Source of the DNA: an uncultured Gammaproteobacteria bacterium
Lineage (GTDB): Bacteria > Patescibacteriota > Patescibacteriia > Magasanikbacterales > UBA922
DNA: 64,000 bases
NCBI GenBank assembly: GCA_964550845.1
Contig: CAZKAD010000003.1
Location: 447-64,446 of the forward strand
Direction: 5' to 3'
Within the stretch, counting starts at the first letter, position 1; every line of letters begins with the position of its first letter. The notes beneath the pieces were generated by a model. It saw only the letters and a list, made by a program, of their open reading frames with translations. It was not told where the DNA came from and made no database searches. Position numbers and translations under genes: made by a program. Below, in pieces: positions 14,900 to 63,074 of the stretch.

Positions 14900-14957
14900 T
14901 TAATTGGCAAATTAATTTTTATTATTTTCTCAATTCTCCTTTATTCCAAATGAGAAA

Positions 14958-15755: not shown

Positions 15756-15781
15756 TGATATTTTGCTTCCGAATAAAATTT

Positions 15782-16471
15782 TTAATCGAGAAAATATAGC
15801 GATATTTTTGAGCCTGTCGCAAAATTTCCTCCGCTCACACTGAAAAAGGTAATATTTGACACGCCTGTAGACAATGCAGTTGTAATTAGAACATTTTCGA
15901 TGGAACCTGTATTTGAATCGACCCAACTGCCATGTTCACCAAACATCGTTAATGCATTCGACACATTCCGAGAAAGATTTGAAATGGTCAAGGTTTGAAC
16001 ACCAAAAGCTGTGGTACCAAGACCAGGGGTTTTATACGCATATCCGTATGTTGACGCAAATGCAAATCGAGTTGCATATGTAGATCCAGACAAGGAATAA
16101 TGTACCACATTGACATAAGGTCCAGAACTATTGTTGACTGTAACCCCAACTGGAGAACTGATCACATCCGAGAAACGAGTACACAACAAGGCTCGAATCG
16201 ATTTTATCGGCGAAGGAAATGATGTAAACGAAATCGAACTTGTCGCTCCCGTTAGCGTAACAGAACCAATCACCGACGAAACGATTGCAGCCACCGGGCC
16301 GGTTGGACCAGTTATAGCCGAACCAACTGATCCGGTTGGGCCTGTAGCTCCGGTTGGACCTGTCGCAACTTCTACAAAAGCCGGTCCTGTAGGTCCGGTT
16401 GGGCCGGTTGGGCCTGTAATTGGTAAAACAAGTCCAGGAGGACTGATTGAACTTGACACACGGAATGACAT
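15782..16471 (-). CDS. Collagen-like protein ([11 protein letters not shown] repeats) with the family C-terminal domain
   Basis: [59 protein letters not shown]... The C-terminus [21 protein letters not shown] contains the GNFATGS family motif. Confidence 0.8.
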
Positions 16472-20005: not shown

Positions 20006-22171
20006 TTATGCGCTGAGATAAACCCACCTTGCTCGACTAAACATAAATCGAGCTGTACCAAGACTATCTAAAAGGCTTGCAGTTGGTATTGAAATTACAC
20101 TTCCTCCTGCACCTGCAAGATTGCTCCCGTTTTCAGTCGTCAATGTCAATAAATTACTTCCCCCAGTAATTATTACAATCATCATACCTTCATATGCTAA
20201 AGTTATAGGCAATATCAACGTGTAACCGTTAACTGTATCGACATTTTCAAAGTATGTTCCTATCATACTTCCAACTCCTAGATTGAATGTTCCTCCTCCT
20301 TCCGGAATTAAAACTAATCCGTGTGCCCATGTTTTTAATGCCGGTAAATGATCAACGATTAAAGAACTTCTGTAATAATTACTTCCGGTTCCAAATGATT
20401 TGTCATCTTGATGTAAAATAGTCCATCCAGAAGCACTTGTTACATTCACTCGATTACATCCTATTAAACATAAATTTCTTGAATCTGTGGAAGTGCACCC
20501 TGATGAATAAGCCATGAATACACCAGTAGAACGCAAACAGAAACCCGACGGACTTGACAGAAGCATACAACTATCCGATCCAGAAGCTCTTGATCCAGTT
20601 GCCAGCAAAATAGAAACAAATTTGGATGATAATATATTTGAATCGTGCGCGAATAAGATTGAACAATTAACTGGAGAAGGATTTGTTATTGGGTTTATTG
20701 TCGAAACAGCTTCTGGACGGGCATTTAAATTCATTCTGTTATTTGCACCTCCTACAATTAACGAATATAACCCAGCATGCATTGTCGATCCAGATGATAC
20801 TAAAATACCACAGTTTCTCGGGGGTATTATAGCATTCCAATCAAAATTATTGACTAGAATGCTATCTAGAGTTAGTCTATTACCGAATCCTCCCATGATA
20901 AAAGAATTTGAAGATCCTGACATTAAAGATGAAGGTGAAAATAAAATTGCAGAATTATTGCATCGAGCTGAAACAGTCGCATTATTCGAATGTGCAATTA
21001 AACAGTCAGTCGATCCTGACATAATAGAACTTATCGAGCCAATAGATGTGGCTCTTATTGCATTGGTTACTACAGAACTTTCTCCTCCGATTAAATTGCT
21101 TGTATCCGATCCGTTCATTGTTGTAGATTTTGAGCCGATGTTAGAACTATGAATTGAAGAACCGACTGAGCTAGCATATGCTAATAGATTAATATTTTCA
21201 GAAGAAGTAACTGTATTGAATTCTCCGGCAATCATCGAATATGAAGATTGATTAACAGTATTTTGTAGCCCTGATACCACACTTGAACCAGTTCCTCCGG
21301 TCGTAATTGTTCCGGAAATTCCTCCTAATATCGATCCTATTGAAGCTTGATTAACGGGAGTTCTACCAAAAGAGATTGATTCTGTATTTGATAATAGTCC
21401 TTGAGGTCCAGTGACTCCCGTCGGTCCTAAATTTCCTTGAACTCCTTGAACTCCTTGAACTCCTTGCGGTCCAGTTGGTCCAATTGGGCCTTGAACTCCT
21501 TGAACTCCTTGACTTCCATTCGCTCCCGCGGGTCCAGTTGGACCTGTCACACCCTGAATTCCTTGACTTCCGTTTGCACCTGCAGGACCAGTTGGTCCGG
21601 TTGCACCCGTAGGACCATTCGCTCCCGCGGGACCAGTTGGTCCGGTTGCACCCGTGTTAGTTGAGAATCCATCTGCTCCCTGAGGTCCAGTTGGACCTGT
21701 CGCTCCCGCAGGACCATTCGCTCCCGCAGGACCAGTTGGTCCGGTTGCACCCGTATTGGTAGCCGAGCCTGGAATTCCTTGCAATCCGGTTGGACCTGTA
21801 ACTCCGGCTACTCCTTGAGGTCCTGTTGGTCCTGTCGCTCCTGTGCTTGTAGCAGAGCCTGGAATTCCTTGAGGTCCAGAAGGTCCAGTTGGACCTGTTA
21901 TTCCAATTATTCCCTGAGGTCCAGTTGGTCCGGTTGCTCCTGTGCTTGTAGCCGAGCCTGGAATTCCTTGTGGTCCAGTCGGTCCTAAATTTCCCTGTAC
22001 TCCTTGAATTCCTTGTACTCCTTGTGGACCAGTTGGCCCAATTGGCCCTTCAGGACCCTGAGGACCTGTGGCTCCTGTACTTGTTGCAGAACCGGCAGGC
22101 CCTGTTGGCCCAATGCCAGCGCCGAGAAGAAGTAAAGGAGTATAAGAATTAAGGTTAATAATTCTTGACAT
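20006..22171 (-). CDS. Large collagen-like protein with approx. 250 aa of Gxx/GPT triplets at the N-terminus and a Ser/Thr/Asn-rich beta-rich C-terminal region; fibre-like
   Basis: [49 protein letters not shown]... and so on, followed by an approx. 450-aa S/T/N/G-rich region. Confidence 0.8.
21400..22130. repeat. Coding collagen triplet-repeat DNA (GGTCC/AGTTGG periodicity)
   Basis: Direct reading. The periodic 9-nt codon pattern generates the spurious antisense ORFs 21437..21664, 21547..21750 and 21779..21988. Confidence 0.85.
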
Positions 22172-27350: not shown

Positions 27351-27857
27351 ATGTCAAAATTCTACACTGATGAACTCAGACATAAGCCGTTGGCTGAAAT
27401 CAGAGAAATTGTACGTCAGAGAAGTATGAATAATATTTTCAAGCAACTCGAAGATAAACTACTTAAATTTGAACACGATTTTCTCGATAGAAAACTTGAT
27501 GATCAAACTTATCGGTTTGATATTTCATTCGATTTTTCTGTCAATTCTCTTCAACTTGCCCGGGATGTATGTAAGCAAATACGTGCTTGGGCCAAGCAAA
27601 AAGATATTGCTATCGGGAAAATTCCAACGACCACAACTCCGCGTAAAATAAGTGTCGATTTTCAATGGAAGCTTGTTCAAAGACCAACGGGATTTTTCGT
27701 CTTGAAAAATCTCACTCTGCTTGGTCTTTCAAGTGAACAAGAGCAAAGTGTATGGACAAAATTTTTGACCCAAGAACTATATGATCCAAGACTGCTTGGA
27801 TTGATCTATTCATTTTTACATTCCACCAAAACTTCAACGTCTCAAAAAACCAATTAA
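27351..27857 (+). CDS. Member of the 'FLTxDLYDPRLL' family (F-box-like motif at the C-terminus)
   Basis: C-terminus ...LTLLGLSSEQEQSVWTKFLTQELYDPRLLGLIYSFLHS... Confidence 0.65.
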   Translation: MSKFYTDELRHKPLAEIREIVRQRSMNNIFKQLEDKLLKFEHDFLDRKLDDQTYRFDISFDFSVNSLQLARDVCKQIRAWAKQKDIAIGKIPTTTTPRKISVDFQWKLVQRPTGFFVLKNLTLLGLSSEQEQSVWTKFLTQELYDPRLLGLIYSFLHSTKTSTSQKTN

Positions 27858-28670: not shown

Positions 28671-29510
28671 TCAATTTTCGAAATTAAAATAAGCTGACGA
28701 ATATATTTGTTCAATTGATGGTCTTTTATCAGGGTCTTTATTCAACATCAAAGTAATCGATTCTTTTGCTTGGTCCGAAAAATGTTTCGGAAATGAAATT
28801 TCAGCATTAATAATTTGTCTGAGAGTGTCTGGTTGTTCCTCCATTTCAAATGGAGGAAAGCCGGCTAAGCATTCATAAAGCAAAATTCCAATTTGCCAAA
28901 CATCGACCTTTTTAGTGTCATACAAATTAAGCTGATATTCTTCTCCGTCTTTCAGGTCAGAATTCTGATAAAGAATACCTTTTGCCATTTCGGGACTCAG
29001 ATAATCGAGAGTTCCTCGAAGCTTTCCATACATTAATTTTTTCGTACTATGCCCCCAATCCGCAAGCTTGTAAGTAATCCTATTCTCAAAACTTACACTA
29101 ATGATATTTTCCGGTTTAATATCGAGATGGGCAATATTTTTTTGATGTGCAGATAAGAGACCCGCAAGTACATCTCGAATTATTTGTTTGGTCAACGTTT
29201 CATCAAATCGTTCTTGTTCTACGAGTAATTTGTATAAACTACTAAAACCAAGTTCAAAACCTATACACGGACGTTCTCCATTCAAATCAAAGCCAAAATA
29301 CGCTTGAATAATATTCGGATGTCTTGGTAAGGAAAGATTAATTTTAATTTCATTCTGAATTACGCTTCTTTCATATGCATTTTCTATTTTACAATTGAAG
29401 ACTTTCAAAGCGCAATATTTTCTATCTTCTTTTCTTCGAGCCAAATAAACAGATGCATATTTGCCTGATCCAAGAGGCTTTCCAATTTCAAAATCTCGAA
29501 GCGTATTCAT
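28671..29510 (-). CDS. Serine/threonine protein kinase
   Basis: Motifs LGSGKYASVYLARRK (Gly loop), ALKVF (VAIK Lys), HLDIKPENI (catalytic loop), DWG (DFG variant), SPE and DVWQIGILLYECLAGFPPF. TCAATTTT (the reverse complement of AAAATTGA) lies 32 nt upstream at 29542..29549. Confidence 0.85.
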   Translation of the reverse strand: MNTLRDFEIGKPLGSGKYASVYLARRKEDRKYCALKVFNCKIENAYERSVIQNEIKINLSLPRHPNIIQAYFGFDLNGERPCIGFELGFSSLYKLLVEQERFDETLTKQIIRDVLAGLLSAHQKNIAHLDIKPENIISVSFENRITYKLADWGHSTKKLMYGKLRGTLDYLSPEMAKGILYQNSDLKDGEEYQLNLYDTKKVDVWQIGILLYECLAGFPPFEMEEQPDTLRQIINAEISFPKHFSDQAKESITLMLNKDPDKRPSIEQIYSSAYFNFEN

Positions 29511-30781: not shown

Positions 30782-31345
30782 TTAAGGTGCAGGCGAAACT
30801 GCAAAATAAGATCCAGTTGCAAAGTTTCCCTCAGAGAGGAAGAATTGAATTGATGATACCGCGTTTGTGCTCCGGAACAAGCCTTGCATTGTTCCGGATC
30901 TTGCTTCGCTACCAGTTGTCACATGGTTACCAGCCGCAGTAATATTTTTAAACCAAGTAGTATTTTTACAATTTGGAATAATTATACTGGCATTACCGGA
31001 AATTCCAGCCGCAGCTCCATTAGCCGGAAAAGCGTCAAGTGAAAAAGAATTTTGATTGTAAGCGGCAACAACCGCGGTTGTATCATTGACTCCATATGAG
31101 GAAACTTGGTCATAAATGGTTCCCGTATTATTATTTAATCTCATGAACACATTAGCTTTTCCATCACTAGCAGTAAGTCGAGTATTGATATTAACTTGAA
31201 ATGACCCTCCAGCTGGAAGATTATTTAGGTTGACAGATGAGGTTGCAGCCGTTAACACCACACTTGTAACTGGGAGTACCGAGGCAATCAAATTTGTGCT
31301 TGGAATTTGATTCCTCAAATCTGCGCTTTGCGAAATTCTTGACAT
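30782..31345 (-). CDS. Fibre-family protein (shared C-terminal domain, no collagen repeats)
   Basis: The C-terminus ...QFFLSEGNFATGSYFAVSPAP shares the GNFATGS motif and the preceding beta-rich domain with the collagen-like ORFs. Confidence 0.6.
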   Translation of the reverse strand: MSRISQSADLRNQIPSTNLIASVLPVTSVVLTAATSSVNLNNLPAGGSFQVNINTRLTASDGKANVFMRLNNNTGTIYDQVSSYGVNDTTAVVAAYNQNSFSLDAFPANGAAAGISGNASIIIPNCKNTTWFKNITAAGNHVTTGSEARSGTMQGLFRSTNAVSSIQFFLSEGNFATGSYFAVSPAP

Positions 31346-32644: not shown

Positions 32645-33511
32645 TTATTCATCTCTCACAACTGAAAGAAAATTTAGATGATCAACTACGCAGGCAGCAG
32701 CATTGAAATGTCCTCCGCCTCCAAATTGCTTAGCAATTGCCGAACAATCGACTTTGTCCTTTCCGCGAAAACTGACTGAATATCGCCCATTAAAAGTTTT
32801 CGAATAAAGTACGACAAAATCAATATTATATTGTCTATTCAGAAAGTCTCCAAGGTCACTTCGAAAAGCAGCTTCACATTCTCCAACCAAAACGTTATAT
32901 ATTTTTTGATCGAACGTCAAAGTTGCTCGAACAAACTTTTTAGCCAGTTCTTCCAGCACAAGTTGTTGTCGTCGAAGCAATTCTTTTCCATCTCGAATAA
33001 ATTTATCCAAATTCCAATATTGATGAAGAATTTGGATGTCGACTGGAGTTGGACTTGAAGCAAGAATAACCGCGTTGATCGCCTTTGATTCGTGAAGTTG
33101 AAATTTCCATAGATCTCGATCTCCGATATAATCAATAATTTCGGGTCTTTTCTTTCCAGGGAAGAAATAATCCCAAGTTAATTGAGCTCCACTTCGATCG
33201 AGATCGAAAATAAAATTAGTTTTTGTTTTAATCAATTCTGATTCGTTAGCTGTCTTATGATGATCAATTACAGTTACTTTTTTGGCTCGACAAATTAATT
33301 CTTCCATTACTTTTGGTTCAAAAGTGAGATCGAGAAATAAAATTCTCTGACCATCGACAAAAGAAGGACAATCTTTTGTATTGTAGGGAAAGCCGAGAAT
33401 TTCAACTTTGACTTTATTTTCGTCTGCCCACTTTTGAGCGATCCATCCGGATGCAGCTCCATCATAACAAGGCGAATGATAAAGAATATAATCAAACTCT
33501 TCAATAGTCAT
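32645..33511 (-). CDS. DHH-family phosphoesterase (NrnA/RecJ-like, with a DHHA1 domain)
   Basis: Motif I ILYHSPCYDGAAS, motif III VIDHHK and the DHHA1 motif FGGGGHFNAAA. Confidence 0.7.
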   Translation of the reverse strand: MTIEEFDYILYHSPCYDGAASGWIAQKWADENKVKVEILGFPYNTKDCPSFVDGQRILFLDLTFEPKVMEELICRAKKVTVIDHHKTANESELIKTKTNFIFDLDRSGAQLTWDYFFPGKKRPEIIDYIGDRDLWKFQLHESKAINAVILASSPTPVDIQILHQYWNLDKFIRDGKELLRRQQLVLEELAKKFVRATLTFDQKIYNVLVGECEAAFRSDLGDFLNRQYNIDFVVLYSKTFNGRYSVSFRGKDKVDCSAIAKQFGGGGHFNAAACVVDHLNFLSVVRDE

Positions 33512-40874: not shown

Positions 40875-40966
40875 CTTTTCCCTTTGGGGAAAAGATAGAC
40901 CCACTTTTGACCAGTCCTCGGGACGTTTAATTAGTTCAAAAAAAATCTTGAAGGGACGTTCAATTT
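40875..40966. terminator. Hairpin CTTTTCCCtttGGGGAAAAG plus two copies of the conserved palindromic element (CCAGTCCtcGGGACGTTTAA; GAAGGGACGTTCAA) between convergent genes
   Basis: Direct reading. Located between the stops of 39972..40847 (+) and 40965..42179 (-). Confidence 0.6.
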
Positions 40967-42179
40967 ATTCTGCTTCAAAAAAGCTTTCAATATCATTGTA
41001 AATACGATTAATCAAGGATTCATCGGCAACTTTCTCTTGAATAGCTTTATTAAGATTTTGTTTGAATTCTGGCAAACGCGATTTGTCAACTTTGCTAACC
41101 GCACTAATCATTTCGGGTATTTCCTCTTGCTTTATCTTAGGATCTAGAATAGACACAATTGTTAAAGCCAATGCAAAATGATCTGCTTTCACAGAAGGTG
41201 GAATGTGATAATTCAATGCATCTAACAATCCAGATGTTTTATCGACATTTCGACATTGAAGCAACGAAGAACTCTCTTTTGTAAAACAACTCTTTCCGAG
41301 ATCTGACAGCGTGGCAACCGGTTTTCCATTTTTCTCGAAGACGAGAATGTTCTTTGGTGCAATTCTTCCATGAACAATACCGTACATATGGAGTACTTCA
41401 AGTTGGTTGTATATTTGGTCGTAAATATCTTCCACCCATTTTGATTTCAATTCTGAAGGCAGTTCAAACAACGGAATTCCAGGATTCCATTTGTAGACCA
41501 GATAGATTATGTTCGGACTAACCTTAAAATCAAGTAACGGAATAAATTCGTTTTCAAATTGAGAGCCGAGTTGGTTCGAAATTTCCCTTAACATTTCAAG
41601 TTCGTGAAGAGGGATAAACTTTCCCATTCCTCCCACAGTGTTTTTCATTGATTTAATGAAAACCTTTTCTTTAGTTGTATCGTCCTGGCCTTCGTATGCA
41701 ATTGATTCTCCATTTGATGAGATTTGCCTTCCAATTGAAAAAGATTTGTTAGAATCGGTAACAAATCCGATTCGACTTCGAGAAATTTCTCCAATACTTT
41801 TTGGAAGTTGAGGTGAAAATTCGGCGATTAATCTTTTCGAGTTACGAAGAGAAGGGAACTTTTCTCGTGATTTTGAACGGAGCTTTTCAGCGAGTAAGTA
41901 ATCTGCATTTTCGGGTAAGATCCGAATTGGCGACGTTCTTTTTGGATGATCATTCAATTTTCTCTTTCCACTATAAGTTTTGATTGATGCTTTTCTCTTC
42001 GAGGAACTCTTCCTTTTCTTCGGACTTGGACTCTTCCTTTTCTTTGGACTCTTCCTTTTCTTTGGGCTTCGAGAAGATTTACGACTTTGTCGCTTTGATC
42101 GGGAAGATTTACGATTTCGTCTCTTTGATCGGGAAGATTTACGACTTTGTCGCTTTGATCGAGATTTTGATTTGGGCAT
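40965..42179 (-). CDS. Protein-kinase-like domain (probable pseudokinase) fused to an N-terminal SPKK/RS-rich basic tail
   Basis: N-terminus MPKSKSRSKRQSRKSSRSKRRNRKSSRSKRQSRKSSRSPKKRKSPKKRKSPSPKKRKSS. Kinase-like core: VFIKSMK, IVHGRIAPKNILVF (where canonical HRDLKPENIL has its catalytic Asp replaced) and LSDLGKS (DLG). Confidence 0.65.
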   Translation of the reverse strand: MPKSKSRSKRQSRKSSRSKRRNRKSSRSKRQSRKSSRSPKKRKSPKKRKSPSPKKRKSSSKRKASIKTYSGKRKLNDHPKRTSPIRILPENADYLLAEKLRSKSREKFPSLRNSKRLIAEFSPQLPKSIGEISRSRIGFVTDSNKSFSIGRQISSNGESIAYEGQDDTTKEKVFIKSMKNTVGGMGKFIPLHELEMLREISNQLGSQFENEFIPLLDFKVSPNIIYLVYKWNPGIPLFELPSELKSKWVEDIYDQIYNQLEVLHMYGIVHGRIAPKNILVFEKNGKPVATLSDLGKSCFTKESSSLLQCRNVDKTSGLLDALNYHIPPSVKADHFALALTIVSILDPKIKQEEIPEMISAVSKVDKSRLPEFKQNLNKAIQEKVADESLINRIYNDIESFFEAE

Positions 42180-43517: not shown

Positions 43518-43880
43518 TTACAATGGATGAATATAAACTTTTGAATCTGGGGAAAGTTTCGGAATTGCTTGAATCAATTGAACAGTTCCCTTTGAATTGG
43601 CGAGAGGAAAACAGAAAATAAATTCAGGTTTCTCAGATAACATTTGGTTGTTCCTTCGTGGACCAGCTGATGCTCCATATTTACTCCATTCAGGAAAATA
43701 GCGTTTAATCTCCCATTTATGTTCGACTGCAAATTCCTCTGCAAATGTATCAGCTCCTCGACATCCTCCTGAGAGGAGAGTTTTCGAGACATTCGGATGT
43801 TGTCGATCAAATTCGAGAAGAACATCCCAAATTACTTTCTTGTCTGCCCATTCACGAGAGCCGGAAACACAAATTTTCAT
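43518..43880 (-). CDS. DUF2493 / SLOG (YspA-related) domain protein
   Basis: ICVSGSREWAD...LLSGGCRGADTFAEEFA...PEWSKYGASAGPRRNNQM fits the DUF2493 pattern (GSR.W...GGa.GAD..Ae.wA...W..Gk.AGp.RN..M). Confidence 0.55.
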   Translation of the reverse strand: MKICVSGSREWADKKVIWDVLLEFDRQHPNVSKTLLSGGCRGADTFAEEFAVEHKWEIKRYFPEWSKYGASAGPRRNNQMLSEKPEFIFCFPLANSKGTVQLIQAIPKLSPDSKVYIHPL

Positions 43881-51758: not shown

Positions 51759-51800
51759 TCATCCTTTGGGATGATTAAACGTCCTTTGGGACTGGTTAAG
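51759..51800. terminator. Hairpin ATCATCCtttGGGATGAT followed by the conserved element TAAACGTCCtttGGGACTGGTTAAG between convergent genes; its TTA is the stop of 51796..52785
   Basis: Direct reading. Confidence 0.65.
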
Positions 51801-52785
51801 TATAAAACTCTTTACGAATTTTCTTCGGAAAAAGATCTTGTAAAGTATCAACTAATTCGGAGTCGTGTTCAATCAAACATTGTAAACATTCTCGTTTATC
51901 TATTTTATTTGCACGAAGTAATATTTCGAGTTCATCTGGATGTTCGATTAAGTGTTCAGAAAATGGACATTCAAGAAAGATAAATAAATCAAGGGAGAAA
52001 TGATATCTCAATATCTTTTCCCAAAGAGGATGACTCTTCGAAAAATATTCAAAGAAAATTTCAATCTGAAAACCACCAAAAGAATTGAAGGAAGTAAACC
52101 TGGTTAAAGACAAATTCCATCTTTGATTAATGTCATCAAGAATTTGATCTCCTGGGAAATATTTCTTTATCATTTGATACCATCGGTGATAATCAATAAA
52201 AGTAAAGTTTAGCGATTGCAAAAAAAGTAGGAAAATTTTCGCCTCGATACTAACTCCATATTCCAAATAAACTGTTCCAGCTTGATGAATATCTTCGGCT
52301 AGATTCATAAAAATAAATTTAATATCATCAAACGAAAGTACATCCTGTTTTCGTTTATACTTCAAGAGTAAATTAAGCAAGTGATATTTTTCTGATACAA
52401 TTACATATACTGAGTATTCGTGCAAAAGTTTAAATCCAGAAATGCAATAATTATTTACCAATGAAAAAATATAATCTATCATTTCCGGTGAAGATAAATC
52501 GATGCAATGATAACTTGTATGCAAAGGTGACCAATAAAATGCGGTTATGTCTCCGCGGATATATTTTTGTGCCGTTTTAATAAAAAGATCATCTGGGAAA
52601 TAACATATCAAACCTCTTGGATAAATGGCTTGTAATTTATCTGCTTGGGAGAGATCAACAAAATTGGTAATTAACAAAAATAATCTTGGATCATACAAAT
52701 CTTTTGTTAAAAAAGAATTCCAATTTGTCTCTCGATTAGATAAACCTGACGCAATTAATTGAATCAAACGGTCAGAAATTGACAT
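51796..52785 (-). CDS. Member of the 'FLTxDLYDPRLL' family, with the motif at the N-terminus
   Basis: N-terminus MSISDRLIQLIASGLSNRETNWNSFLTKDLYDPRLFLLITNFVDLS... Confidence 0.65.
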   Translation of the reverse strand: MSISDRLIQLIASGLSNRETNWNSFLTKDLYDPRLFLLITNFVDLSQADKLQAIYPRGLICYFPDDLFIKTAQKYIRGDITAFYWSPLHTSYHCIDLSSPEMIDYIFSLVNNYCISGFKLLHEYSVYVIVSEKYHLLNLLLKYKRKQDVLSFDDIKFIFMNLAEDIHQAGTVYLEYGVSIEAKIFLLFLQSLNFTFIDYHRWYQMIKKYFPGDQILDDINQRWNLSLTRFTSFNSFGGFQIEIFFEYFSKSHPLWEKILRYHFSLDLFIFLECPFSEHLIEHPDELEILLRANKIDKRECLQCLIEHDSELVDTLQDLFPKKIRKEFYT

Positions 52786-53449: not shown

Positions 53450-53507
53450 TTTAACTAGTCCCGAAGGACGTTTAACCAATTCAAAAAGTCCCGAAGGACG
53501 TTTAACC
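53450..53507. promoter_or_regulatory. Two tandem reverse-orientation copies of the conserved element (TTAACTAGTCCcgaaGGACGTTTAACC; AGTCCcgaaGGACGTTTAACC)
   Basis: Direct reading. Located between the stop of 53527..54255 and the start of 52815..53429 (both minus strand). Confidence 0.6.
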
Positions 53508-54255: not shown

Positions 54256-54350
54256 ACTTTTAGAGAATAAGAATTTTAAGAGAAGATTTTTAATGAAAAG
54301 ATTTTTGAACTACCGAAAGGAAGTGGCTAGTTTTATCTCAAATACACAAG

Positions 54351-54376
54351 TTAAACGTCTCTTCAAGACTGGTTAG
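54351..54376. promoter_or_regulatory. Conserved element TTAAACGTCTCttcaAGACTGGTTAG immediately 5' of the histidine-kinase ATG
   Basis: Direct reading. The element ends 0 nt before the ATG at 54377, in a divergent intergenic region. Confidence 0.5.
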
Positions 54377-56182
54377 ATGCCTCTTCGCAAACTGGCTTTC
54401 TATGTGAATCAACTTGTTTCGACCTCTCTAAATGATTTCTTCTTGAATTGTCTCAAGGAAATTCAAGAACAGACAAAATCTAATTCGGCGAATCTTCGGG
54501 TCTTTAACGGTCCGACAATTCAAACCTCAACAGATTCAATTGAAACAAATATTCATTCGGAGAAAGCAATCATTACGCGATCTATTTATTTTGACGAAAA
54601 AGAATCATGGATACCCTTATTATCTGGAGATAAAGTCTGTGGTCTAATTGGCTTACTCAGTCCAAAAGAGCGTCCAAATCAGTTTGTTGAACAACTAATC
54701 AACTTAATTGTTGCTCGAATTCTATCGATCAAGAAAGAATTACCAAATGATTCTTTTATCTCGAACATGAGTCATGAATTGAGAAATCCTTTGAACGGGT
54801 TACTGGGATATCTTCAAATTCTTGAATCATCGGGGTTAAATTCTGCTCAACAAGGATATCTCTACTCGGCACAAAAATGCGGTTTGAGTTTAATTCGAGT
54901 CGTCAACGATATCTTAGATTACTCAAAACTAATGTCAGGTAAAATGAAGTTAAACGTACAAATTACCAATTTGTATGATTTACTTGGTTTTGTCGAAGAA
55001 ACTCTCCATATTTCAATCCAAGAAAAAGGACACACTTTTACCCTCTTTTTTCATCCAGATGTCCCAAAGATGATTTTAACCGATTCTCAAAAATTAGCTC
55101 AGATTTGTATTAATCTGCTAAGTAATGCAATTAAATTCACACCGGCGAAAGGAAAAATTAACTTTGAAGTAAATCTGATGATCAAAGAAAAAGAATATCT
55201 TATCTTTAAGATTGCCGATACTGGTTGTGGCATTTCAAAAATTCAATCGGATGAATTGTTTCGAACTTTTACTCGACTTCATCATTCAAGAGAAGAGGGA
55301 ACAGGGCTTGGATTAGTTATTTCGAAAAAACTAACCGAATTGCTCTCAGGAACTATTCGTCTTGAAAAATCTTCATCTGAAGGTTCGGAATTTGTTTTTG
55401 AAATTCCACTTCAGAGAGCTCAAGAAGTTCGAAGTTCTCAACTTGGATTTAAGAAAGAAGTTTGTTTATTTGTTTCAGAGAAAGTTCAAACAGAATTAAA
55501 TCCACTGCTATTACGATGGGGAATGAAAGTATTTAATGTTCAATCTTTTTCAGAACTTTTAACAATCTTGAGCAGTTATGTATATGATTTTGAACTTGTC
55601 ATTCTTGAAGATGGAGAAAAAGAATTTGAACAAAATTCGAATAAGATTTGGGAAATTTGTCCAAAAATTCCAATTATACATGCCTGTAAAATCTTACCTC
55701 AAAAGAAGAGTGACTCATATTTTCATCTGCTTAATTTTACTCCAACAGAATTGTACAATTGTATTGCAAGGGCCTTGGAAAATTCTCTCTATTTGAAAAA
55801 GAAAAATTCGATTCGACTTGATCTGAAGAAAAAGATTTTGATTGCTGAAGATGATCCAAGTGGAAGGGAAATTTTGTCTAGATTACTCCAATCAATTGGT
55901 TTCTCGGAAATTGATTGTGCCGAAGATGGTCTTCAAGCCTTGAATATGATTCAAAAGAAAAGTTATTCTTACTTATTCATTGATTTGAAAATGCCGGTTA
56001 TTGACGGGTATGAAGTAATTACCACAATAAATAAGAAACCAAATAAGACAATGAAATTAATTTGTGTTTCAGCATCTGTTACAGATGAAGATAAACAATT
56101 TTGTCAAAAAGCATCTGTTCCATTTCTTGCAAAACCGGTTCAATTTCGAAATCTACAAGACTTGATGGTTTCATTGAGTTAG
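54377..56182 (+). CDS. Hybrid sensor histidine kinase: N-terminal sensor region, HisKA, HATPase_c, a degenerate middle domain and a C-terminal receiver (REC) domain; soluble
   Basis: H-box MSHELRNPLNGLLGYLQIL. N box LLSNAIKFT. G1 DTGCGI. G2 GTGLGLVISKKL. Receiver: ILIAEDDPSGREIL...LFIDLKMPVIDGYEV...LAKP. No TM helices were seen. Confidence 0.85.
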   Translation: MPLRKLAFYVNQLVSTSLNDFFLNCLKEIQEQTKSNSANLRVFNGPTIQTSTDSIETNIHSEKAIITRSIYFDEKESWIPLLSGDKVCGLIGLLSPKERPNQFVEQLINLIVARILSIKKELPNDSFISNMSHELRNPLNGLLGYLQILESSGLNSAQQGYLYSAQKCGLSLIRVVNDILDYSKLMSGKMKLNVQITNLYDLLGFVEETLHISIQEKGHTFTLFFHPDVPKMILTDSQKLAQICINLLSNAIKFTPAKGKINFEVNLMIKEKEYLIFKIADTGCGISKIQSDELFRTFTRLHHSREEGTGLGLVISKKLTELLSGTIRLEKSSSEGSEFVFEIPLQRAQEVRSSQLGFKKEVCLFVSEKVQTELNPLLLRWGMKVFNVQSFSELLTILSSYVYDFELVILEDGEKEFEQNSNKIWEICPKIPIIHACKILPQKKSDSYFHLLNFTPTELYNCIARALENSLYLKKKNSIRLDLKKKILIAEDDPSGREILSRLLQSIGFSEIDCAEDGLQALNMIQKKSYSYLFIDLKMPVIDGYEVITTINKKPNKTMKLICVSASVTDEDKQFCQKASVPFLAKPVQFRNLQDLMVSLS

Positions 56183-56242: not shown

Positions 56243-56297
56243 AAAAAACCAAGCTTAACGACGTCTAGTTATAGACCGAATTAAGCTTGGTTTTTTT
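56243..56297. terminator. Strong hairpin with a 15-16 bp perfect stem (AAAAAACCAAGCTTAA...TTAAGCTTGGTTTTTTT) flanked by an A-run and a T-run; bidirectional terminator-like
   Basis: Direct reading. Located between the stops of 54377..56182 (+) and 56406..57203 (-). The loop contains a nested GTCTAgttaTAGAC. Confidence 0.65.
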
Positions 56298-58844: not shown

Positions 58845-58886
58845 GCGTTTAACTTGTCTGAAAGATGTTTAACTCGTCTAGATGAG
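58845..58886. promoter_or_regulatory. Degenerate pair of the conserved element (GCGTTTAACttgtctgaaagatGTTTAACtcgtctagatgag) in a divergent intergenic region
   Basis: Direct reading. The flanks are conserved and the stems are weaker. Confidence 0.4.
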
Positions 58887-59809: not shown

Positions 59810-60862
59810 TTAAAAAGAGCAAATCGTTATGAGTAATCGAGGATCGTACAAATCTCGAAGCAAAAAGTCCATTAAAATGTCTTCTTGTGACAATCCAGCA
59901 CAGACTAACATGTTTAACATCTTTTGTTCCACATAGATGATTAGGTAGATATTTTTGCGGAAATTTAAAATGTCAATGTACATTCCTTCTTTTTGTTGAT
60001 CTGTCAAAAAGGTCCACTGAGGCATATTTTTTCGAATATCATTATTGATATTGAACGATGTCTTTTCATATCTATACATTGCACAATCATCAAGTACAAA
60101 AAGAGGCAAATCGATATTCGGATATTCTCGAATTGAAGTCAGTGTTTCTGGTTCTTTGTATCCGGGACATCCAATGACTGGAAGTTCGTCGAGAAATTGA
60201 ATTGACGGGAGAAAAAGGATAAATTGGAGTGCTTCAATATCATGGATAAATAATAAATAAACTTTTGTTTTAACGGCGCTCCAAAACTTTAAGGTCGTAA
60301 ATAAATTTCCATTGATTTTTTCATCTGAATCGCCTTGTATGGCTTGTTGAGAAAAAAGAGTTCGAGTGGAAGGTGTATATATTCCTCTTGTTATTTTCAT
60401 CGAAAGAGACGCGACCATTTTTTCTGATAAAATTTTTTCTGTGATCGGTCGATATTCTGTTGCACACACCCTCATCCTGACGCAAATTGGTATATTCAGT
60501 TGATCAAATAACTTCAAGATATTTGCTGGAGCCACGAGGAAAGTTTCTTTTTGATTGTTTGCATCAATCGAGATGATCCATTCTGGCGAATATTCTATCG
60601 ATTTGACTGAAATTAATTTTCTTTGAAAAATACTCTCAATTAATTTCTGAAATTCATCAATGTAAGATTCATGTGAAATCTGACTAAAAATCGAAAGAAT
60701 TAAATCGACTTCTTGATCTGAAAGTCGATTAATGATTGGATTTTCTTTCCCGAGGACGTCAAAGTTGTGGCGAACAGTACTATGATCTTCATCTATATTA
60801 ACTTTCGTTAACGCTGAACAAAAGAATTGATGAAACAAAGATAACTTTTGTCTAGAATTCAT
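59810..60862 (-). CDS. Member of the 'FLTxDLYDPRLL' family (tandem trio member A; F-box-like motif at the C-terminus)
   Basis: N-terminus MNSRQKLSLFHQFF...LSDQEVDLILSIFSQISHE. C-terminus ...LNMLVCAGLSQEDILMDFLLRDLYDPRLLITICSF. Confidence 0.7.
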   Translation of the reverse strand: MNSRQKLSLFHQFFCSALTKVNIDEDHSTVRHNFDVLGKENPIINRLSDQEVDLILSIFSQISHESYIDEFQKLIESIFQRKLISVKSIEYSPEWIISIDANNQKETFLVAPANILKLFDQLNIPICVRMRVCATEYRPITEKILSEKMVASLSMKITRGIYTPSTRTLFSQQAIQGDSDEKINGNLFTTLKFWSAVKTKVYLLFIHDIEALQFILFLPSIQFLDELPVIGCPGYKEPETLTSIREYPNIDLPLFVLDDCAMYRYEKTSFNINNDIRKNMPQWTFLTDQQKEGMYIDILNFRKNIYLIIYVEQKMLNMLVCAGLSQEDILMDFLLRDLYDPRLLITICSF

Positions 60863-60946: not shown

Positions 60947-61963
60947 TCAACAAAAAGGAAATTCTTCAAAGAAACTGTCATCTGAAAGAGCAAAACAATT
61001 AATTAAATTCAAGATGCGAGGGTCGAATAAATCCCGTGTAAGAAAGTTGTGCCAAGTTCCACCCTGAAATAAACCCGTGCAGATAATCATATTCAACATT
61101 GCTTGTTCATCACAGGTAATTAAATAGATACTGTGGTAATAGTTCTCAATATCATTCTCGGCTTCCCGTAAAGCTTCAAGATCTATCCAACTTGGAATCA
61201 AATTTCCTGCCCAAAATGAAAAGGGTTCTTCGTCATAATCAGGATTAAGATATACAAGCGGGCGGTTAACAAGAGTTTGCCGCTCGACTGATTTAATCAA
61301 ATATGATTGATCAAATGTTATTCCTCGTTTAGCAAAGATTCTCTTCAGTAATGTTGGCGAAGGTAGTTTTAGAATAGCTTCAAATGCCTCTTTACTCTGA
61401 GGCGCCAAAATATAAGTTTTGCTTTTTACAATACTCCAAAACAGTAAAGTTTCAGCGTTAGTTTCATTTAGTTTACTTTCCGAAAATACATCTTCAATTG
61501 TATTTGACCAGTTAATTTGGATAACAGGAGGCAAATCAATTTCTTCGAACAATCCATCGAGCTCTCGTAAATTGTCTTTTACTTCTTGGAAATCAAAAAA
61601 GACAGAGGTTTGAATGTTTAATTCTCGAATGATCGAATCTGCATTCAATTTGACTGGAACGTGTTTATACATATGACGTGTTTCAACACAAACATATTTT
61701 GATGATCCAAAATATCTTTGAAATCCTATAGGCTGCTTGTTGATTAATGCGTCAAGCAATAAACCGACATCATTAGAAATCGATTCTTCTCTTGAAATCA
61801 TCTTAAAGATCGAGATGATTGAAGCGACTTCTTGATCAGTCAATTGTTCAACAATTGGATGAGGTTGGAGCATATCATCGAGTTGGAAATGAGCAATCTC
61901 TTCTTCCGTTTCATACGGAAGAAAAAGATGGCAAATTGTGCTTAATTTTTGTCTGAGATTCAT
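60947..61963 (-). CDS. Member of the 'FLTxDLYDPRLL' family (tandem trio member B)
   Basis: Start set at the internal MNLRQKLSTICHLF, which is homologous to the paralog N-termini and removes the overlap. C-terminus ...LNMIICTGLFQGGTWHNFLTRDLFDPRILNLINCF... Confidence 0.7.
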   Translation of the reverse strand: MNLRQKLSTICHLFLPYETEEEIAHFQLDDMLQPHPIVEQLTDQEVASIISIFKMISREESISNDVGLLLDALINKQPIGFQRYFGSSKYVCVETRHMYKHVPVKLNADSIIRELNIQTSVFFDFQEVKDNLRELDGLFEEIDLPPVIQINWSNTIEDVFSESKLNETNAETLLFWSIVKSKTYILAPQSKEAFEAILKLPSPTLLKRIFAKRGITFDQSYLIKSVERQTLVNRPLVYLNPDYDEEPFSFWAGNLIPSWIDLEALREAENDIENYYHSIYLITCDEQAMLNMIICTGLFQGGTWHNFLTRDLFDPRILNLINCFALSDDSFFEEFPFC

Positions 61964-62012
61964 TGCAGTCCTCCAATAAAGATAAAGAGTAAAATCAATT
62001 TTGCTCTTCTTC

Positions 62013-63074
62013 TTAAATCTCACCAAAATTGCACACATTTGAAATACTAAATTGACTAATTAAAATCAAAACCCGAGGATCGTACAAATCTCGAAGAAGA
62101 AAATTACTCAACTTCCCTTCTTCAAATAAACCGAAACATACGAGATTGTGTAACAATGCGTGTTCAGTGCAAGTAATATAATAACTATTCAAGTAAAAAT
62201 GAACAACATCGGCGTAAATTTCATTATTTATCTCCTCATTTTCGGATGAAACGGGAATTTTCTTTCTCAGATTAAGATGAATGGATGAAAAATCCTTTTT
62301 GTTCTTTGTATAACAGAGATAACAGAGATAAAAGAGAAGATGATTATTATCCGGATATTGTTCGATTGCTTCGAGTGTGTCAGACTGCTCACGAATAAAC
62401 TTTTTGAGTATCTTTGGTGAAGGCAACGAGATTATCGATTCAAAAGCAATACTTGAGAGAGGCATCATTAAATAGACTTTTGATCGAAGAATGCTCCAAA
62501 AGAGTAAAATTTTTTTGTAATTCTCGAGATCAAGATCAACATTGGATGACGGAGAATGATAAACTTGAATCATTGTTGGTAGGCATATTTTATTCGATAA
62601 AATTTTTCCTCGATTAAATGTAGTTTCAAACGGATTTAAATATTTAAGACGCATGAATGTTCGAACATTTAACTGTTCTAACAGTGGACATACTTGTTGT
62701 TTTACATCAACTTCATCCTGCGCGTCAGATGTTTTGATGCTCATGTTCGTGTATTGAATACGAAAGTGATGATAGTCGGTTATTTGACATTCTTTTTTAC
62801 GAATAAGAGCTTCAATAAACAATCCGATATCTGACACATTTCCATTCTCAAAATCAATCATTTCAATCGCTTGAATAATGAGAGAAACTTCATGATCACT
62901 TAGACGTTCCAGACAATTCTCGAAAGTGGTTAAACTTCCCGGAGTACGTTTCGATTCCAGAAATTCGTCGAAACGAAAGTAATGGCCATTGTGTTTGATA
63001 CGTTGTTGAATATTCCGAGTCACATAAACTTGACAAAAAATAGCTAATTTTTGTCGCAAAGTGAAATCAGCCAT
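62013..63074 (-). CDS. Member of the 'FLTxDLYDPRLL' family (tandem trio member C)
   Basis: N-terminus MADFTLRQKLAIFCQVYV...LSDHEVSLIIQAIEMIDFE. C-terminus ...LHNLVCFGLFEEGKLSNFLLRDLYDPRVLILISQF... Confidence 0.7.
   Translation of the reverse strand: MADFTLRQKLAIFCQVYVTRNIQQRIKHNGHYFRFDEFLESKRTPGSLTTFENCLERLSDHEVSLIIQAIEMIDFENGNVSDIGLFIEALIRKKECQITDYHHFRIQYTNMSIKTSDAQDEVDVKQQVCPLLEQLNVRTFMRLKYLNPFETTFNRGKILSNKICLPTMIQVYHSPSSNVDLDLENYKKILLFWSILRSKVYLMMPLSSIAFESIISLPSPKILKKFIREQSDTLEAIEQYPDNNHLLFYLCYLCYTKNKKDFSSIHLNLRKKIPVSSENEEINNEIYADVVHFYLNSYYITCTEHALLHNLVCFGLFEEGKLSNFLLRDLYDPRVLILISQFSISNVCNFGEI

What the first reader, a model, noticed from the sequence alone, without database searches (positions are those of the whole stretch)
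54377..56182. Hybrid two-component histidine kinase with an attached receiver domain, encoded in a virus-like genome
The ORF has a complete set of H, N, G1 and G2 boxes and a C-terminal REC domain with the phospho-acceptor Asp (LFIDLKMP) and the conserved Lys (LAKP). A degenerate extra domain lies between the kinase and the receiver. It has no membrane segments, so it would sense an intracellular cue through its approx. 120-aa N-terminal region. Two-component kinases are rare in viruses, and a soluble hybrid histidine kinase suggests direct manipulation of a host phosphorelay, for example stress, osmotic or light pathways in an algal or protist host. No Hpt protein or stand-alone response regulator is present in the window.
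Basis: partly seen in the sequence, partly recalled or inferred. Interest (0 to 1): 0.6.

Follow-up and report, generated by a model that had tools for sequence, protein, structure and literature searches.

The report
Giant-virus soluble hybrid histidine kinase
A giant virus of an unknown microbial eukaryote carries an intact, selection-maintained two-component sensor kinase with its own receiver domain. It belongs to a kinase family found in many uncultured giant viruses, so it is real and interesting but not a new kind of thing.

Summary
ORF 54377-56182 (+, 601 aa) matches HisKA, HATPase_c and Response_reg well above the Pfam cut-offs. It has the H, N, G1, F and G2 boxes and a complete receiver signature (E491, D492, D536, S565, K586). 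It has no membrane segment.

- **Extra domain:** residues 361-476 are a pseudo-receiver. It is homologous to the intact first receiver of viral relatives but has lost the catalytic residues.
- **N-terminus:** residues 1-120 look like a compact, very divergent GAF domain. This assignment is tentative.
- **Not contamination:** the gene sits in a nucleocytoplasmic large DNA virus contig. It has syntenic orthologues at 87% and 54% identity, dN/dS of about 0.08 in every domain, a virus-type upstream motif and a 3' hairpin.
- **Family:** it belongs to a moderately supported, AT-rich clade of about 600-700 aa kinase-receiver-receiver proteins. At least 100 relatives occur on IMG/VR viral contigs, many of them named giant-virus MAGs. 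"Rare in viruses" is therefore overstated.
- **Partners:** the window has no Hpt protein and no stand-alone receiver. Two related giant-virus MAG lineages do encode a stand-alone Hpt near their kinase.

Most likely the kinase autophosphorylates on H133, passes phosphate to D536, and feeds or drains a His-Asp phosphorelay in the infected cell. The signal, the partner and the host are unknown. Hybrid kinases are already known from brown-algal phaeoviruses, so this is a new member of a known kind.

The parts
54350..54357 (+). GTTAAACG upstream motif, starting 27 nt before the ATG and followed by a short inverted repeat (GTCT-CTTCA-AGAC). Candidate promoter element of a non-AAAATTGA gene class.
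   Evidence: GTTAAAC[GA] lies within 150 nt upstream of a same-strand gene start in 13 of 25 occurrences, although 89% of the window is coding. GTTAAAC occurs upstream of 10 genes against 1.3 expected. There is no AAAATTGA upstream of this gene.
54377..56182 (+). Complete ORF, 601 aa: soluble hybrid histidine kinase (GAF-like, HisKA, HATPase_c, pseudo-receiver, receiver).
   Evidence: Identical protein P0001 is in NCBI and Logan, on a longest contig of 81 kb. dN/dS is 0.077 against the 87% orthologue.
54377..54736 (+). N-terminal domain, aa 1-120: compact, divergent GAF-like putative sensor or dimerisation module.
   Evidence: AlphaFold gives an a-a-b...b-b-a fold with pLDDT about 57-88 per 10-residue block in the full-length model. 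All top Foldseek hits are GAF domains, but the best E is only 0.07. A profile search of 1.84 billion representatives finds only its own cluster strongly, plus weak hits (8e-7 to 8e-4) to multi-GAF bacterial kinases; the three matched segments I re-scanned lie inside Pfam GAF_2 domains. There is no Pfam hit for the domain itself; the orthologue P0003 scores GAF_2 at E 0.076. dN/dS is 0.057.
54752..54937 (+). HisKA (DHp) phospho-acceptor and dimerisation domain, aa 126-187. The phospho-acceptor His133 codon is at 54773-54775 (H box SHELRNPLNG).
   Evidence: Pfam E 3.6e-18. H133 is invariant in the alignment. Modelled as two long helices, 126-150 and 156-187.
55082..55414 (+). HATPase_c catalytic ATP-binding domain, aa 236-346, with N, G1, F and G2 boxes.
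   Evidence: Pfam E 8.3e-24. Motif positions, invariance. Best solved relative of the kinase core (DHp + CA) is GacS 7z8n at E 3.9e-40.
55457..55804 (+). Pseudo-receiver (degenerate first receiver), aa 361-476. Canonical DD is S367/E368, the phospho-acceptor Asp is E411 with loss of the following D-x-x-M-P loop, T/S is C437, and Lys is T455.
   Evidence: No Response_reg hit at E<=10, whereas the equivalent domain of relative P0005 scores 1.7e-15. hhalign against the first receiver of relatives gives probability 93.6%, E 2e-7. Modelled as a receiver-like beta/alpha fold, pLDDT 64-74. The full-length model best matches ShkA 6qrj, which has the same kinase/pseudo-receiver/receiver order. dN/dS is 0.113, so the domain is maintained rather than decaying.
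55835..56161 (+). Canonical receiver domain, aa 487-595. The phospho-acceptor Asp536 codon is at 55982-55984. Also E491, D492, S565 and K586-P587.
   Evidence: Pfam E 1.6e-20. D492, D536 and K586 are invariant; E491 is conserved in at least 90% of the aligned proteins. pLDDT 82-93.
56243..56297 (.). Inverted repeat (AAAAAACCAAGCTTAA ... TTAAGCTTGGTTTTTTT) between the convergent kinase gene and the DUF5891 gene. Probable hairpin-type 3'-end signal for transcripts.
   Evidence: The 128-nt downstream region folds at -34.8 kcal/mol against -21.3 +/- 3.5 for shuffles, z = -3.8. A short palindrome also follows the orthologue in L001. Hairpin 3' ends are a described Mimiviridae feature (PMC6163669, PMC4402537).

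Best explanation
**What it is.** A native, functional giant-virus gene for a cytoplasmic homodimeric hybrid histidine kinase.

**Shown by sequence and model.** The domain order is a compact GAF-like N-terminal module, a DHp helix pair carrying His133, an ATP-binding catalytic domain with all nucleotide-binding boxes, a pseudo-receiver that has lost its catalytic residues, and an intact receiver carrying Asp536.

**Inferred from established two-component biochemistry.**
- The catalytic domain phosphorylates His133 of the dimer.
- The phosphoryl group moves intramolecularly to Asp536.
- From there it can only travel on through a histidine phosphotransfer (Hpt) protein to a response regulator.
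- The HisKA phosphatase motif (H-E-x-x-N) is retained. The same protein could therefore also pull phosphate backwards out of an Hpt and act as a sink.
- The window encodes neither an Hpt nor a response regulator. The most likely partner is therefore a host Hpt, so the virus would feed or drain a host His-Asp phosphorelay during infection.

**Regulatory roles (inferred).** The N-terminal GAF-like module probably sets kinase activity in response to an unknown cytoplasmic cue, or simply stabilises the dimer. By analogy with Caulobacter ShkA, the pseudo-receiver probably acts as a regulatory or docking module that controls the receiver's access to the DHp helices.

**Family.** The protein belongs to a virus-specific clade of kinase-receiver-receiver proteins. 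The window's lineage has converted the first receiver into a pseudo-receiver.
For: - **Domains and motifs:**
- **Structure:** full-length model with mean pLDDT 78. The best solved match is full-length ShkA 6qrj (E 2e-27, 501 columns), which has the order DHp-CA-pseudo-receiver-receiver. The ShkA mechanism is described in 10.1101/675454 and PMC7010744.
- **Pseudo-receiver homology and degeneration:**
- **Purifying selection in all four regions:** dN/dS 0.057-0.113 at dS of about 0.88 against the 87% orthologue.
- **Viral context:** P9_TM, DUF5767, DUF5832, DUF2738, VP39-like subunit, A18-like helicase, Pol X and collagen repeats. GC content is uniform with the neighbours.
- **Synteny:** helicase-AAA-PolX...kinase-DUF5891 is conserved with the 54% orthologue, and the flanking genes are conserved with the 87% orthologue.
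- **Viral expression signals:**
- **Viral clade:** 23 of the top 120 homologue clusters form one bipartition (NJ bootstrap 25/30 on amino acids, 11/30 exact with Dayhoff-6 recoding, mean Jaccard 0.91). Eight members that I inspected lie in giant-virus contexts. At least 100 IMG/VR loci encode relatives.
- **No partners in the window:**
Against: - No biochemical data exist for this or, in the papers I found, for any giant-virus histidine kinase.
- The window is only part of the genome, so a viral Hpt or response regulator elsewhere cannot be excluded. Two related viral lineages do encode an Hpt.
- The host is unknown, and whether it has a His-Asp phosphorelay is unknown.
- The GAF assignment is below every significance threshold for the domain itself.
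- The ShkA analogy is architectural only. The DDR linker motif of ShkA is absent.
- Clade monophyly could be inflated by the shared AT-rich composition, and support drops with recoding.
- The clade was defined from only the 120 best of 7,780 hits.
Confidence: 0.6

Rival explanations
1. **Virus-internal relay.** The kinase is the input of a phosphorelay whose Hpt, and perhaps response regulator, are also virus-encoded elsewhere in the genome. The relay times the viral programme (for example, a switch between expression classes or a response to the state of the infected cell) rather than rewiring a host pathway.
For: Stand-alone Hpt ORFs with the H-x-L-K-G-S-S motif lie about 9 kb from family members in two giant-virus MAG lineages: L054, and L041/L045/L046. 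They score E 3.5e-14 and 8.7e-8 with a home-made HMM, and Pfam Hpt gives 27.6 and 33.9 bits against a cut-off of 24.6. The window covers only part of the genome. Most family members carry two receivers (74 of 96 kinase ORFs).
Against: No Hpt or stand-alone receiver occurs in the 64-kb window, in the syntenic relatives L001-L006, or in the roughly 20-kb neighbourhoods of about 90 other loci. No virus-encoded response regulator with an output domain was seen in any convincing viral locus. The only locus with extra receiver ORFs, L021, looks bacterial. A pattern scan of IMG/VR with the viral Hpt recovered only the same contigs, though that scan has low sensitivity.
Confidence: 0.2
2. **Phosphate sink or decoy.** The main activity is not kinase signalling. 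The receiver accepts phosphate by reverse transfer from host Hpt proteins and loses it by hydrolysis or by the kinase's phosphatase activity. This silences a host stress or hormone phosphorelay.
For: The intact receiver and the retained H-E-x-x-N phosphatase motif are present. Reverse phosphotransfer and sink receivers are established in multistep phosphorelays (general two-component knowledge, not tested here).
Against: All ATP-binding boxes (N, G1, F, G2) are invariant and the catalytic domain is under strong purifying selection (dN/dS 0.063). A pure sink would not need this.
Confidence: 0.12
3. **Bacterial gene on a contaminating or chimeric contig, or a very recent bacterial capture with no viral function.**
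For: All named homologues among the top hits are bacterial. The best solved relative is bacterial GacS. NCBIfam ranks TorS, BarA and RcsC models first.
Against: - The gene is flanked on both sides by giant-virus genes, with the same GC content.
- Orthologues at 87% and 54% identity are syntenic in related viral contigs from independent samples.
- Virus-type upstream motif and 3' hairpin are present.
- The best bacterial relatives in GTDB species genomes reach only 25-32% identity over most of the protein (one local segment reaches 40%) and are spread over many phyla.
- All NCBIfam scores are far below the family cut-offs.
- The gene groups with other viral proteins.
Confidence: 0.02
4. **Decaying, non-functional remnant of a kinase-receiver-receiver gene.**
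For: One of the two receivers has lost every catalytic residue. The N-terminal domain no longer matches any Pfam model.
Against: The ORF is intact in three diverged viruses. dN/dS is about 0.06-0.11 in every region, including the pseudo-receiver and the N-terminus. All catalytic motifs of the kinase and the second receiver are invariant.
Confidence: 0.03

Closest known systems
ShkA of Caulobacter crescentus (PDB 6qrj), a cytosolic hybrid histidine kinase activated by c-di-GMP
   Same: Soluble, with the same domain order: DHp, CA, pseudo-receiver, canonical receiver. It is the best structural match to the full-length model (E 2e-27, 501 aligned columns) and matches by sequence at E 5e-37. In both proteins the pseudo-receiver has lost the two acidic residues after beta-1 but keeps an acidic residue at the acceptor position (10.1101/675454).
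   Different: Only about 22% identical. ShkA has no N-terminal sensor domain, whereas this protein has a GAF-like module of about 120 aa. The DDR tether motif of the ShkA inter-receiver linker is absent from the linker here (ENSLYLKKKNSIRLDLKKK). The pseudo-receiver here arose inside the viral clade from an intact receiver, so the resemblance is convergent. c-di-GMP is not expected in most eukaryotic hosts.
Hybrid histidine kinases of phaeoviruses (EsV-1 six, FirrV-1 and FsV-158 three each, up to nine in a brown-algal endogenous viral element)
   Same: Hybrid histidine kinases encoded by Nucleocytoviricota, of unknown function, proposed to sense host or environmental cues (PMC11890097, PMC12993054). 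One EsV-1 kinase is reported in the virion (Delaroque et al. 2000, cited in PMC12993054).
   Different: They come from a different viral lineage: latent, integrating brown-algal viruses. No phaeovirus protein appears among the 120 best homologues. The window's virus shows AAAATTGA and hairpin signals typical of cytoplasmic giant viruses (PMC6163669, PMC11788076).
Uncultured giant-virus kinase-receiver-receiver family (metagenomic proteins P0005, P0008/P0129, P0017/P0022, P0019, P0021, P0051, P0067, P0099; IMG/VR and GVMAG loci L015-L094)
   Same: Same clade in the distance tree. Same length class (about 580-700 aa) and no membrane segment in the 17 clade members checked. Short N-terminal sensor, then HisKA, HATPase_c and two receiver-type domains. 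Found in giant-virus gene neighbourhoods.
   Different: Only 27-35% identical. Most have an intact first receiver (74 of 96 ORFs show two receiver hits). Some carry a PAS N-terminus rather than a GAF-like one: the two tested scored PAS E 6e-6 (P0017) and PAS_3 E 9e-4 (P0091). One member, P0046, has a bona fide GAF. The window's own sub-lineage (P0001-P0003) is absent from IMG/VR above 33% identity.
Unorthodox bacterial sensor kinases BarA/GacS, TorS, ArcB, RcsC
   Same: Best-scoring NCBIfam models (E 1e-58 to 1e-76). The closest solved kinase core is GacS 7z8n at E 3.9e-40, 34% identity in the Foldseek alignment. Same HisKA-type core followed by a receiver.
   Different: Scores of 198-257 bits are far below the family cut-offs of 676-920. 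This protein has no transmembrane or periplasmic sensor, no HAMP domain and no C-terminal Hpt domain.
Multi-GAF bacterial hybrid kinases with GAF(n)-HisKA-HATPase_c-receiver-receiver (for example metagenomic P0254, P0258)
   Same: They are among the few proteins, out of 1.84 billion representatives, weakly matched by the N-terminal profile. In the segments I re-scanned the match falls in the C-terminal half of Pfam GAF_2 domains. By reading their sequences, P0254 and P0258 also end in kinase-receiver-receiver.
   Different: They are very long (about 2000-2400 aa), GC-rich and bacterial. The match is weak and covers only about 35-40 residues per repeat.

Membership tests
HisKA-type (class I) sensor histidine kinase | DHp/HisKA domain with a conserved phospho-acceptor His in an H box | tested here: met
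   Pfam HisKA 65.8 bits against a cut-off of 26.9. H133 in SHELRNPLNG is invariant in 13 relatives. Two long helices are modelled.
HisKA-type (class I) sensor histidine kinase | Bergerat-fold ATP-binding domain with N, G1, F and G2 boxes | tested here: met
   Pfam HATPase_c 84.6 bits against a cut-off of 26.4. N246/N250, D281-G283-G285, F295 and G308-G310-G312 are invariant.
HisKA-type (class I) sensor histidine kinase | ATP-dependent autophosphorylation on His | not testable with these tools
   Needs purified protein and labelled ATP.
Hybrid histidine kinase (kinase plus receiver in one chain) | C-terminal receiver with the acidic pair, phospho-acceptor Asp, Thr/Ser and Lys | tested here: met
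   Response_reg 73.7 bits against a cut-off of 30.2. E491, D492, D536, S565 and K586-P587 are present.
Unorthodox kinases (BarA/GacS, TorS, ArcB, EvgS) | C-terminal Hpt domain after the receiver; membrane-anchored sensor; score above the NCBIfam equivalog cut-off | tested here: not met
   No Hpt by Pfam. The protein ends 6 residues after the receiver. No transmembrane segment. NCBIfam scores are 135-257 bits against cut-offs of 676-1995.
ShkA-type c-di-GMP-activated hybrid kinase | Domain order DHp-CA-pseudo-receiver-receiver | tested here: met
ShkA-type c-di-GMP-activated hybrid kinase | DDR tether motif in the inter-receiver linker and a c-di-GMP-binding face (Y338, R324, R344) on the pseudo-receiver (10.1101/675454) | tested here: not met
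   The linker, residues 470-486 (ENSLYLKKKNSIRLDLKKK), has no DDR (sequence). I did not map the binding-face residues one by one. c-di-GMP binding itself cannot be tested here.
GAF domain | Significant match to a GAF profile or a confident GAF fold | tested here: inconclusive
   No Pfam hit for the window domain; the orthologue scores GAF_2 at E 0.076. All Foldseek top hits are GAF domains, but the best E is 0.07 on a pLDDT-61 model. The profile weakly hits multi-GAF kinases; the three segments I re-scanned lie inside GAF_2 domains. hhalign to the GAF of P0046 covers only 22 columns at probability 5.7%.
Receiver domain (for residues 361-476) | Catalytic quintet D-D-D-T/S-K | tested here: not met
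   The positions hold S367/E368, E411, C437 and T455. No Response_reg hit at E<=10. It is therefore a pseudo-receiver: homologous in fold and position but not a phospho-acceptor.
Giant-virus (Nucleocytoviricota) gene | Embedded among hallmark viral genes, conserved in related viral genomes, with viral expression signals | tested here: met
   The order-level lineage is not resolved. AAAATTGA occurs in Mimiviridae but also in pacmanvirus, ASFV and some Iridoviridae (PMC11788076). The nearest named A18-like helicase is from the MAG 'Iridovirus LCIVAC01' at 40% identity.
Phaeovirus histidine kinases (EsV-1 type) | Sequence relatedness to EsV-1, FirrV-1 or FsV kinases | not tested
   Their sequences cannot be fetched with these tools. 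None is named among the 120 best hits.

The most novel reading that the evidence does not exclude
Uncultured giant viruses carry their own ancient, virus-specific lineage of soluble kinase-receiver-receiver proteins with interchangeable PAS or GAF inputs. In some lineages a virus-encoded Hpt protein accompanies the kinase. That would amount to a virus-borne His-Asp phosphorelay operating inside infected eukaryotic cells. In the window's lineage the first receiver has been remodelled, under purifying selection, into a ShkA-like regulatory pseudo-receiver. To my knowledge no paper in the searched library describes or names this family.
Probability: 0.35. Interest if true: 0.6.

Novelty: new member of a known kind. 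Interest (0 to 1): 0.4.

Why it matters
Two-component signalling is absent from animals but widespread in algae, amoebae, fungi and other protists, which are the hosts of giant viruses.

A virus-specific kinase family that is conserved and under strong selection implies that giant viruses routinely sense something in the infected cell, or tamper with a host phosphorelay. No function is known for any such viral kinase, including the phaeovirus ones known for 25 years.

This protein is small, soluble and complete. That makes it a tractable candidate for autophosphorylation, phosphotransfer and ligand-screening assays. Its pseudo-receiver offers a natural comparison with relatives that keep two live receivers. 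Stand-alone Hpt genes in two related viral lineages suggest that parts of the relay itself can be viral.

Tried and rejected
- **Phage DNA search:** megablast of the locus against phage records found no match. This was expected, because the collection holds no giant viruses.
- **N-terminal domain:**
  - An alignment with more distant relatives (A2) misaligned, so I dropped it in favour of the three close sequences.
  - The N-terminus-only model had low confidence (pLDDT 61), and its fold search gave no significant hit.
  - hhalign to the true GAF of P0046 covered only 22 columns.
- **CikA lead:** a hit labelled CikA (P0102) turned out to have a receiver-kinase-receiver architecture, not GAF-kinase-pseudo-receiver. 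I dropped this as a relative.
- **Virus lineage:** the A18-like helicase search returned almost only unnamed metagenomic proteins, so the viral order stays unresolved.
- **Sample origin:** a search for sample accessions in papers found only one, unrelated to the window's samples.
- **Viral Hpt distribution:** an IMG/VR scan with the viral Hpt recovered only the contigs already known.
- **Bacterial donor:** the GTDB scan found no close donor.
- **Hypotheses rejected:** contamination and pseudogene (see the rival explanations).
Full report
**1. The observation.** The ORF at 54377-56182 (+) encodes 601 aa. Its ATG is immediately preceded by an in-frame TAG, so no N-terminal extension is hidden. 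Pfam gives three matches far above the curated cut-offs:
- HisKA, residues 126-187, E 3.6e-18.
- HATPase_c, residues 236-346, E 8.3e-24.
- Response_reg, residues 487-595, E 1.6e-20.

- H box SHELRNPLNG (H133).
- N box NLLSNAIKFT.
- G1 DTGCGI, F box LFRTF, G2 GTGLGL.
- Receiver residues E491, D492, D536 (LFIDLKMP), S565 and K586-P587 (LAKP).

The H, N, G1, F and G2 residues, and D492, D536 and K586, are invariant in an alignment of 13 related proteins. E491 is conserved in at least 90% of them. The highest 19-residue hydropathy mean is 1.21, so there is no membrane segment.

**2. Genomic context: a giant virus, not a contaminant.** The window is 89% coding, with GC of 33-43% and no break at the kinase gene. 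Its ORFs include:
- a PBCV-type minor capsid protein P9;
- DUF5767, DUF5832, DUF2738, DUF5891 and DUF5754;
- a VP39-like poly(A)-polymerase regulatory subunit, fused to NADAR and methyltransferase domains;
- an A18-like helicase, an AAA ATPase and DNA polymerase X;
- collagen-repeat proteins, NUDIX, SWIB, Skp1 and two Ser/Thr kinases.

AAAATTGA lies within 150 nt upstream of a same-strand gene start in 16 of 23 occurrences. It is upstream of 14 genes against 1.0 expected. This motif is the early-promoter signature described for Mimiviridae (PMC6163669). It has also been reported in pacmanviruses, ASFV and some Iridoviridae (PMC11788076).

A second motif, GTTAAAC(G/A), is upstream of genes in 13 of 25 occurrences. 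The kinase gene has it starting 27 nt before the ATG and has no AAAATTGA. A strong inverted repeat at 56243-56297 lies between the kinase gene and the convergent DUF5891 gene (z = -3.8). This is the hairpin type of 3' signal described for Mimiviridae (PMC4402537).

The viral order is not resolved. The nearest named A18-like helicase is from a MAG called Iridovirus LCIVAC01, at 40% identity.

**3. Orthologues and selection.** An identical protein is on record from NCBI and Logan, on a longest contig of 81 kb. There are orthologues at 87% (P0002) and 54% (P0003) identity.
- P0003 lies in a collinear neighbourhood in contigs from several samples: A18 helicase, AAA, Pol X..., kinase, DUF5891.
- P0002 has the same flanking genes.

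Nei-Gojobori dN/dS between the window and the 87% orthologue is as follows, at dS of about 0.88:

| Region | dN/dS |
|---|---|
| Whole gene | 0.077 |
| N-terminal domain | 0.057 |
| Kinase core | 0.063 |
| Middle domain (pseudo-receiver) | 0.113 |
| Receiver | 0.076 |

Two neighbouring genes give 0.088 and 0.194. The gene and each of its parts are therefore maintained by selection.

**4. The "degenerate extra domain" is a pseudo-receiver.** Relatives at 27-35% identity carry two receivers after the kinase. In the window protein and its two orthologues, the first receiver's signature residues are replaced:

| Canonical receiver position | Window protein |
|---|---|
| Acidic pair (DD) | S367, E368 |
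| Phospho-acceptor Asp | E411, with the following D-x-x-M-P loop deleted |
| Thr/Ser | C437 |
| Lys | T455 |

The domain gives no Response_reg hit even at E<=10. The equivalent domain of P0005 scores 1.7e-15. A profile-profile comparison still shows the homology (probability 93.6%, E 2e-7, 101 columns). AlphaFold models a receiver-like beta/alpha fold.

The full-length model (pLDDT 78) is best matched in the PDB by full-length ShkA of Caulobacter (6qrj, E 2e-27, 501 columns). ShkA has exactly this order. Its pseudo-receiver binds c-di-GMP, which releases the real receiver from an auto-inhibited position (10.1101/675454, PMC7010744). The ShkA DDR tether motif is not present in the linker here, so the likeness is architectural and convergent.

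**5. The N-terminal 120 residues.** Both models give helix-helix-strand...strand-strand-helix.
- The fold search returns GAF domains almost exclusively, but the best E is only 0.07.
- A profile of the three orthologues, searched against 1.84 billion representatives, finds its own cluster (E 2e-66). The only other hits are six very weak ones.
- I inspected four of those six. All four are long multi-GAF bacterial proteins, and two of them clearly end in a hybrid kinase. In the three segments I re-scanned, the match falls inside the C-terminal half of Pfam GAF_2 domains.
- Pfam itself sees nothing in the window domain, and gives GAF_2 at E 0.076 in P0003.
- A clade member, P0046, has a bona fide GAF. 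Two others tested have PAS domains.

I read this as a compact, strongly diverged GAF-like module and mark the assignment as tentative. Its ligand, if any, cannot be predicted.

**6. A viral kinase family.** In a distance tree of the 120 best homologue clusters, 23 AT-rich proteins of about 485-700 aa, including the window's, form one bipartition:
- bootstrap 25/30 on amino acids;
- 11/30 exact with Dayhoff-6 recoding, mean Jaccard 0.91.

Eight of these clusters were inspected, and all lie in giant-virus neighbourhoods. These contain P9, P11, NCLDV capsid, PolB, TFIIB, TBP, eIF-1a, intein-bearing topoisomerase II or collagen genes. A ninth, P0033, was ambiguous.

A scan of IMG/VR found at least 100 loci encoding relatives. 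Eighty were fetched, many of them on contigs named GVMAG and up to 505 kb long. Among the 96 kinase ORFs in all fetched loci, 74 have two receiver hits and 21 have one.

Named homologues are all bacterial, but at no more than about 30-35% identity over the full length. A scan of GTDB species genomes gives 25-32% over most of the protein, across many phyla, with no evident donor. The family therefore looks old within giant viruses. Its ultimate origin, bacterial or eukaryotic, is unresolved.

**7. Partners.** No Hpt and no stand-alone receiver exists in the window, either by Pfam over all ORFs or by home-made Hpt and receiver HMMs over all six-frame ORFs (best Hpt E 0.098).

Two related GVMAG lineages do have a stand-alone Hpt ORF of about 125 aa, roughly 9 kb from the kinase. 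It carries the H-x-L-K-G-S-S motif and scores above the Pfam cut-off.

**8. Mechanism.**
- *Shown:* the domain anatomy, intact catalytic motifs, selection and viral context.
- *Inferred from standard two-component chemistry:* trans- or cis-autophosphorylation of H133 in a DHp dimer, transfer to D536, then onward or reverse transfer through an Hpt protein. That Hpt is most likely a host one, because the virus fragment has none.
- *Speculative:* regulation by the GAF-like module and by the pseudo-receiver in the manner of ShkA.

Rivals are a virus-internal relay, a phosphate sink, contamination and a decaying gene. They are weighed in their own section. The last two are effectively excluded.

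**9. Novelty.** Hybrid histidine kinases in giant viruses have been known since EsV-1. Phaeoviruses carry three to nine of them, and one is reported in the virion (PMC11890097, PMC12993054). A 2026 GVMAG catalogue mentions histidine-kinase-like orthology groups in passing (PMC13524828).

I found no paper in the searched library that describes this soluble kinase-receiver-receiver family, its pseudo-receiver variant or the viral Hpt genes. The finding is thus a well-supported new member of a known kind. The family-level picture is what deserves follow-up.

Noticed in passing
window 1685, 33543, 33594, 47944, 53455-53506, 54350, 57220, 58853-58873, 59257 and others: GTTAAAC(G/A) recurs upstream of genes: 13 of 25 occurrences lie within 150 nt of a same-strand start. 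It is sometimes tandemly repeated and is often followed by a short GC hairpin such as GTCCTTCGGGAC. It may mark a second promoter class, distinct from AAAATTGA genes, or a repeated intergenic element.
   Followed up: partly
window-wide, e.g. 2587, 5996, 6887, 11258, 26873, 49770, 50796: AAAATTGA, the early-promoter motif of Mimiviridae and some other Nucleocytoviricota, lies upstream of a same-strand gene in 16 of 23 occurrences.
   Followed up: yes
window 10573-11109(-), 27351-27857(+), 51796-52785(-), 59810-60862(-), 60947-62038(-), 62013-63074(-): Six ORFs share a W..FLT.(D/E)LYDPRLL.LI..F motif, including three tandem paralogues of about 350 aa. None has a Pfam match. This looks like an uncharacterised multi-copy viral gene family.
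   Followed up: no
L054 948-1325(-); L041, L045, L046 882-1262(-) (IMG/VR GVMAG-M-3300007622-7 and GVMAG-S-1091796-13): Stand-alone histidine phosphotransfer (Hpt) proteins of about 125 aa are encoded about 9 kb from kinase-family genes in AT-rich (23-24% GC) giant-virus MAG contigs. They carry the H-x-L-K-G-S-S motif and score above the Pfam Hpt cut-off. In the same loci a small ORF that looks multi-helix and hydrophobic by eye (not tested) lies just upstream of the kinase.
   Followed up: partly
window 6928-10542(+): A 1204-aa fusion protein combines an N-terminal NADAR domain, a cap-guanine-N2-type methyltransferase region and a C-terminal VP39-like poly(A)-polymerase regulatory/2'-O-methyltransferase domain.
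   Followed up: no
window 32645-33511(-), 43518-43880(-), 2660-3277(+), 28671-29510(-), 40965-42179(-): Other signalling- or nucleotide-related genes lie near the kinase: a DHH/DHHA1 phosphoesterase, a YAcAr (SLOG) domain protein, a Skp1 homologue and two Ser/Thr protein kinases.
   Followed up: no
L021 (IMGVR_UViG_3300033109_000048): This IMG/VR contig holds two kinase ORFs and three separate receiver ORFs within 11 kb. That looks bacterial rather than giant-viral, so the contig may be misfiled.
   Followed up: no
window 14162-16471(-), 20006-22171(-), 30782-31345(-): There are several collagen-like (G-P-T/G-x-y repeat) and Ser/Thr-rich putative fibre proteins, which appear to be paralogous.
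   Followed up: no
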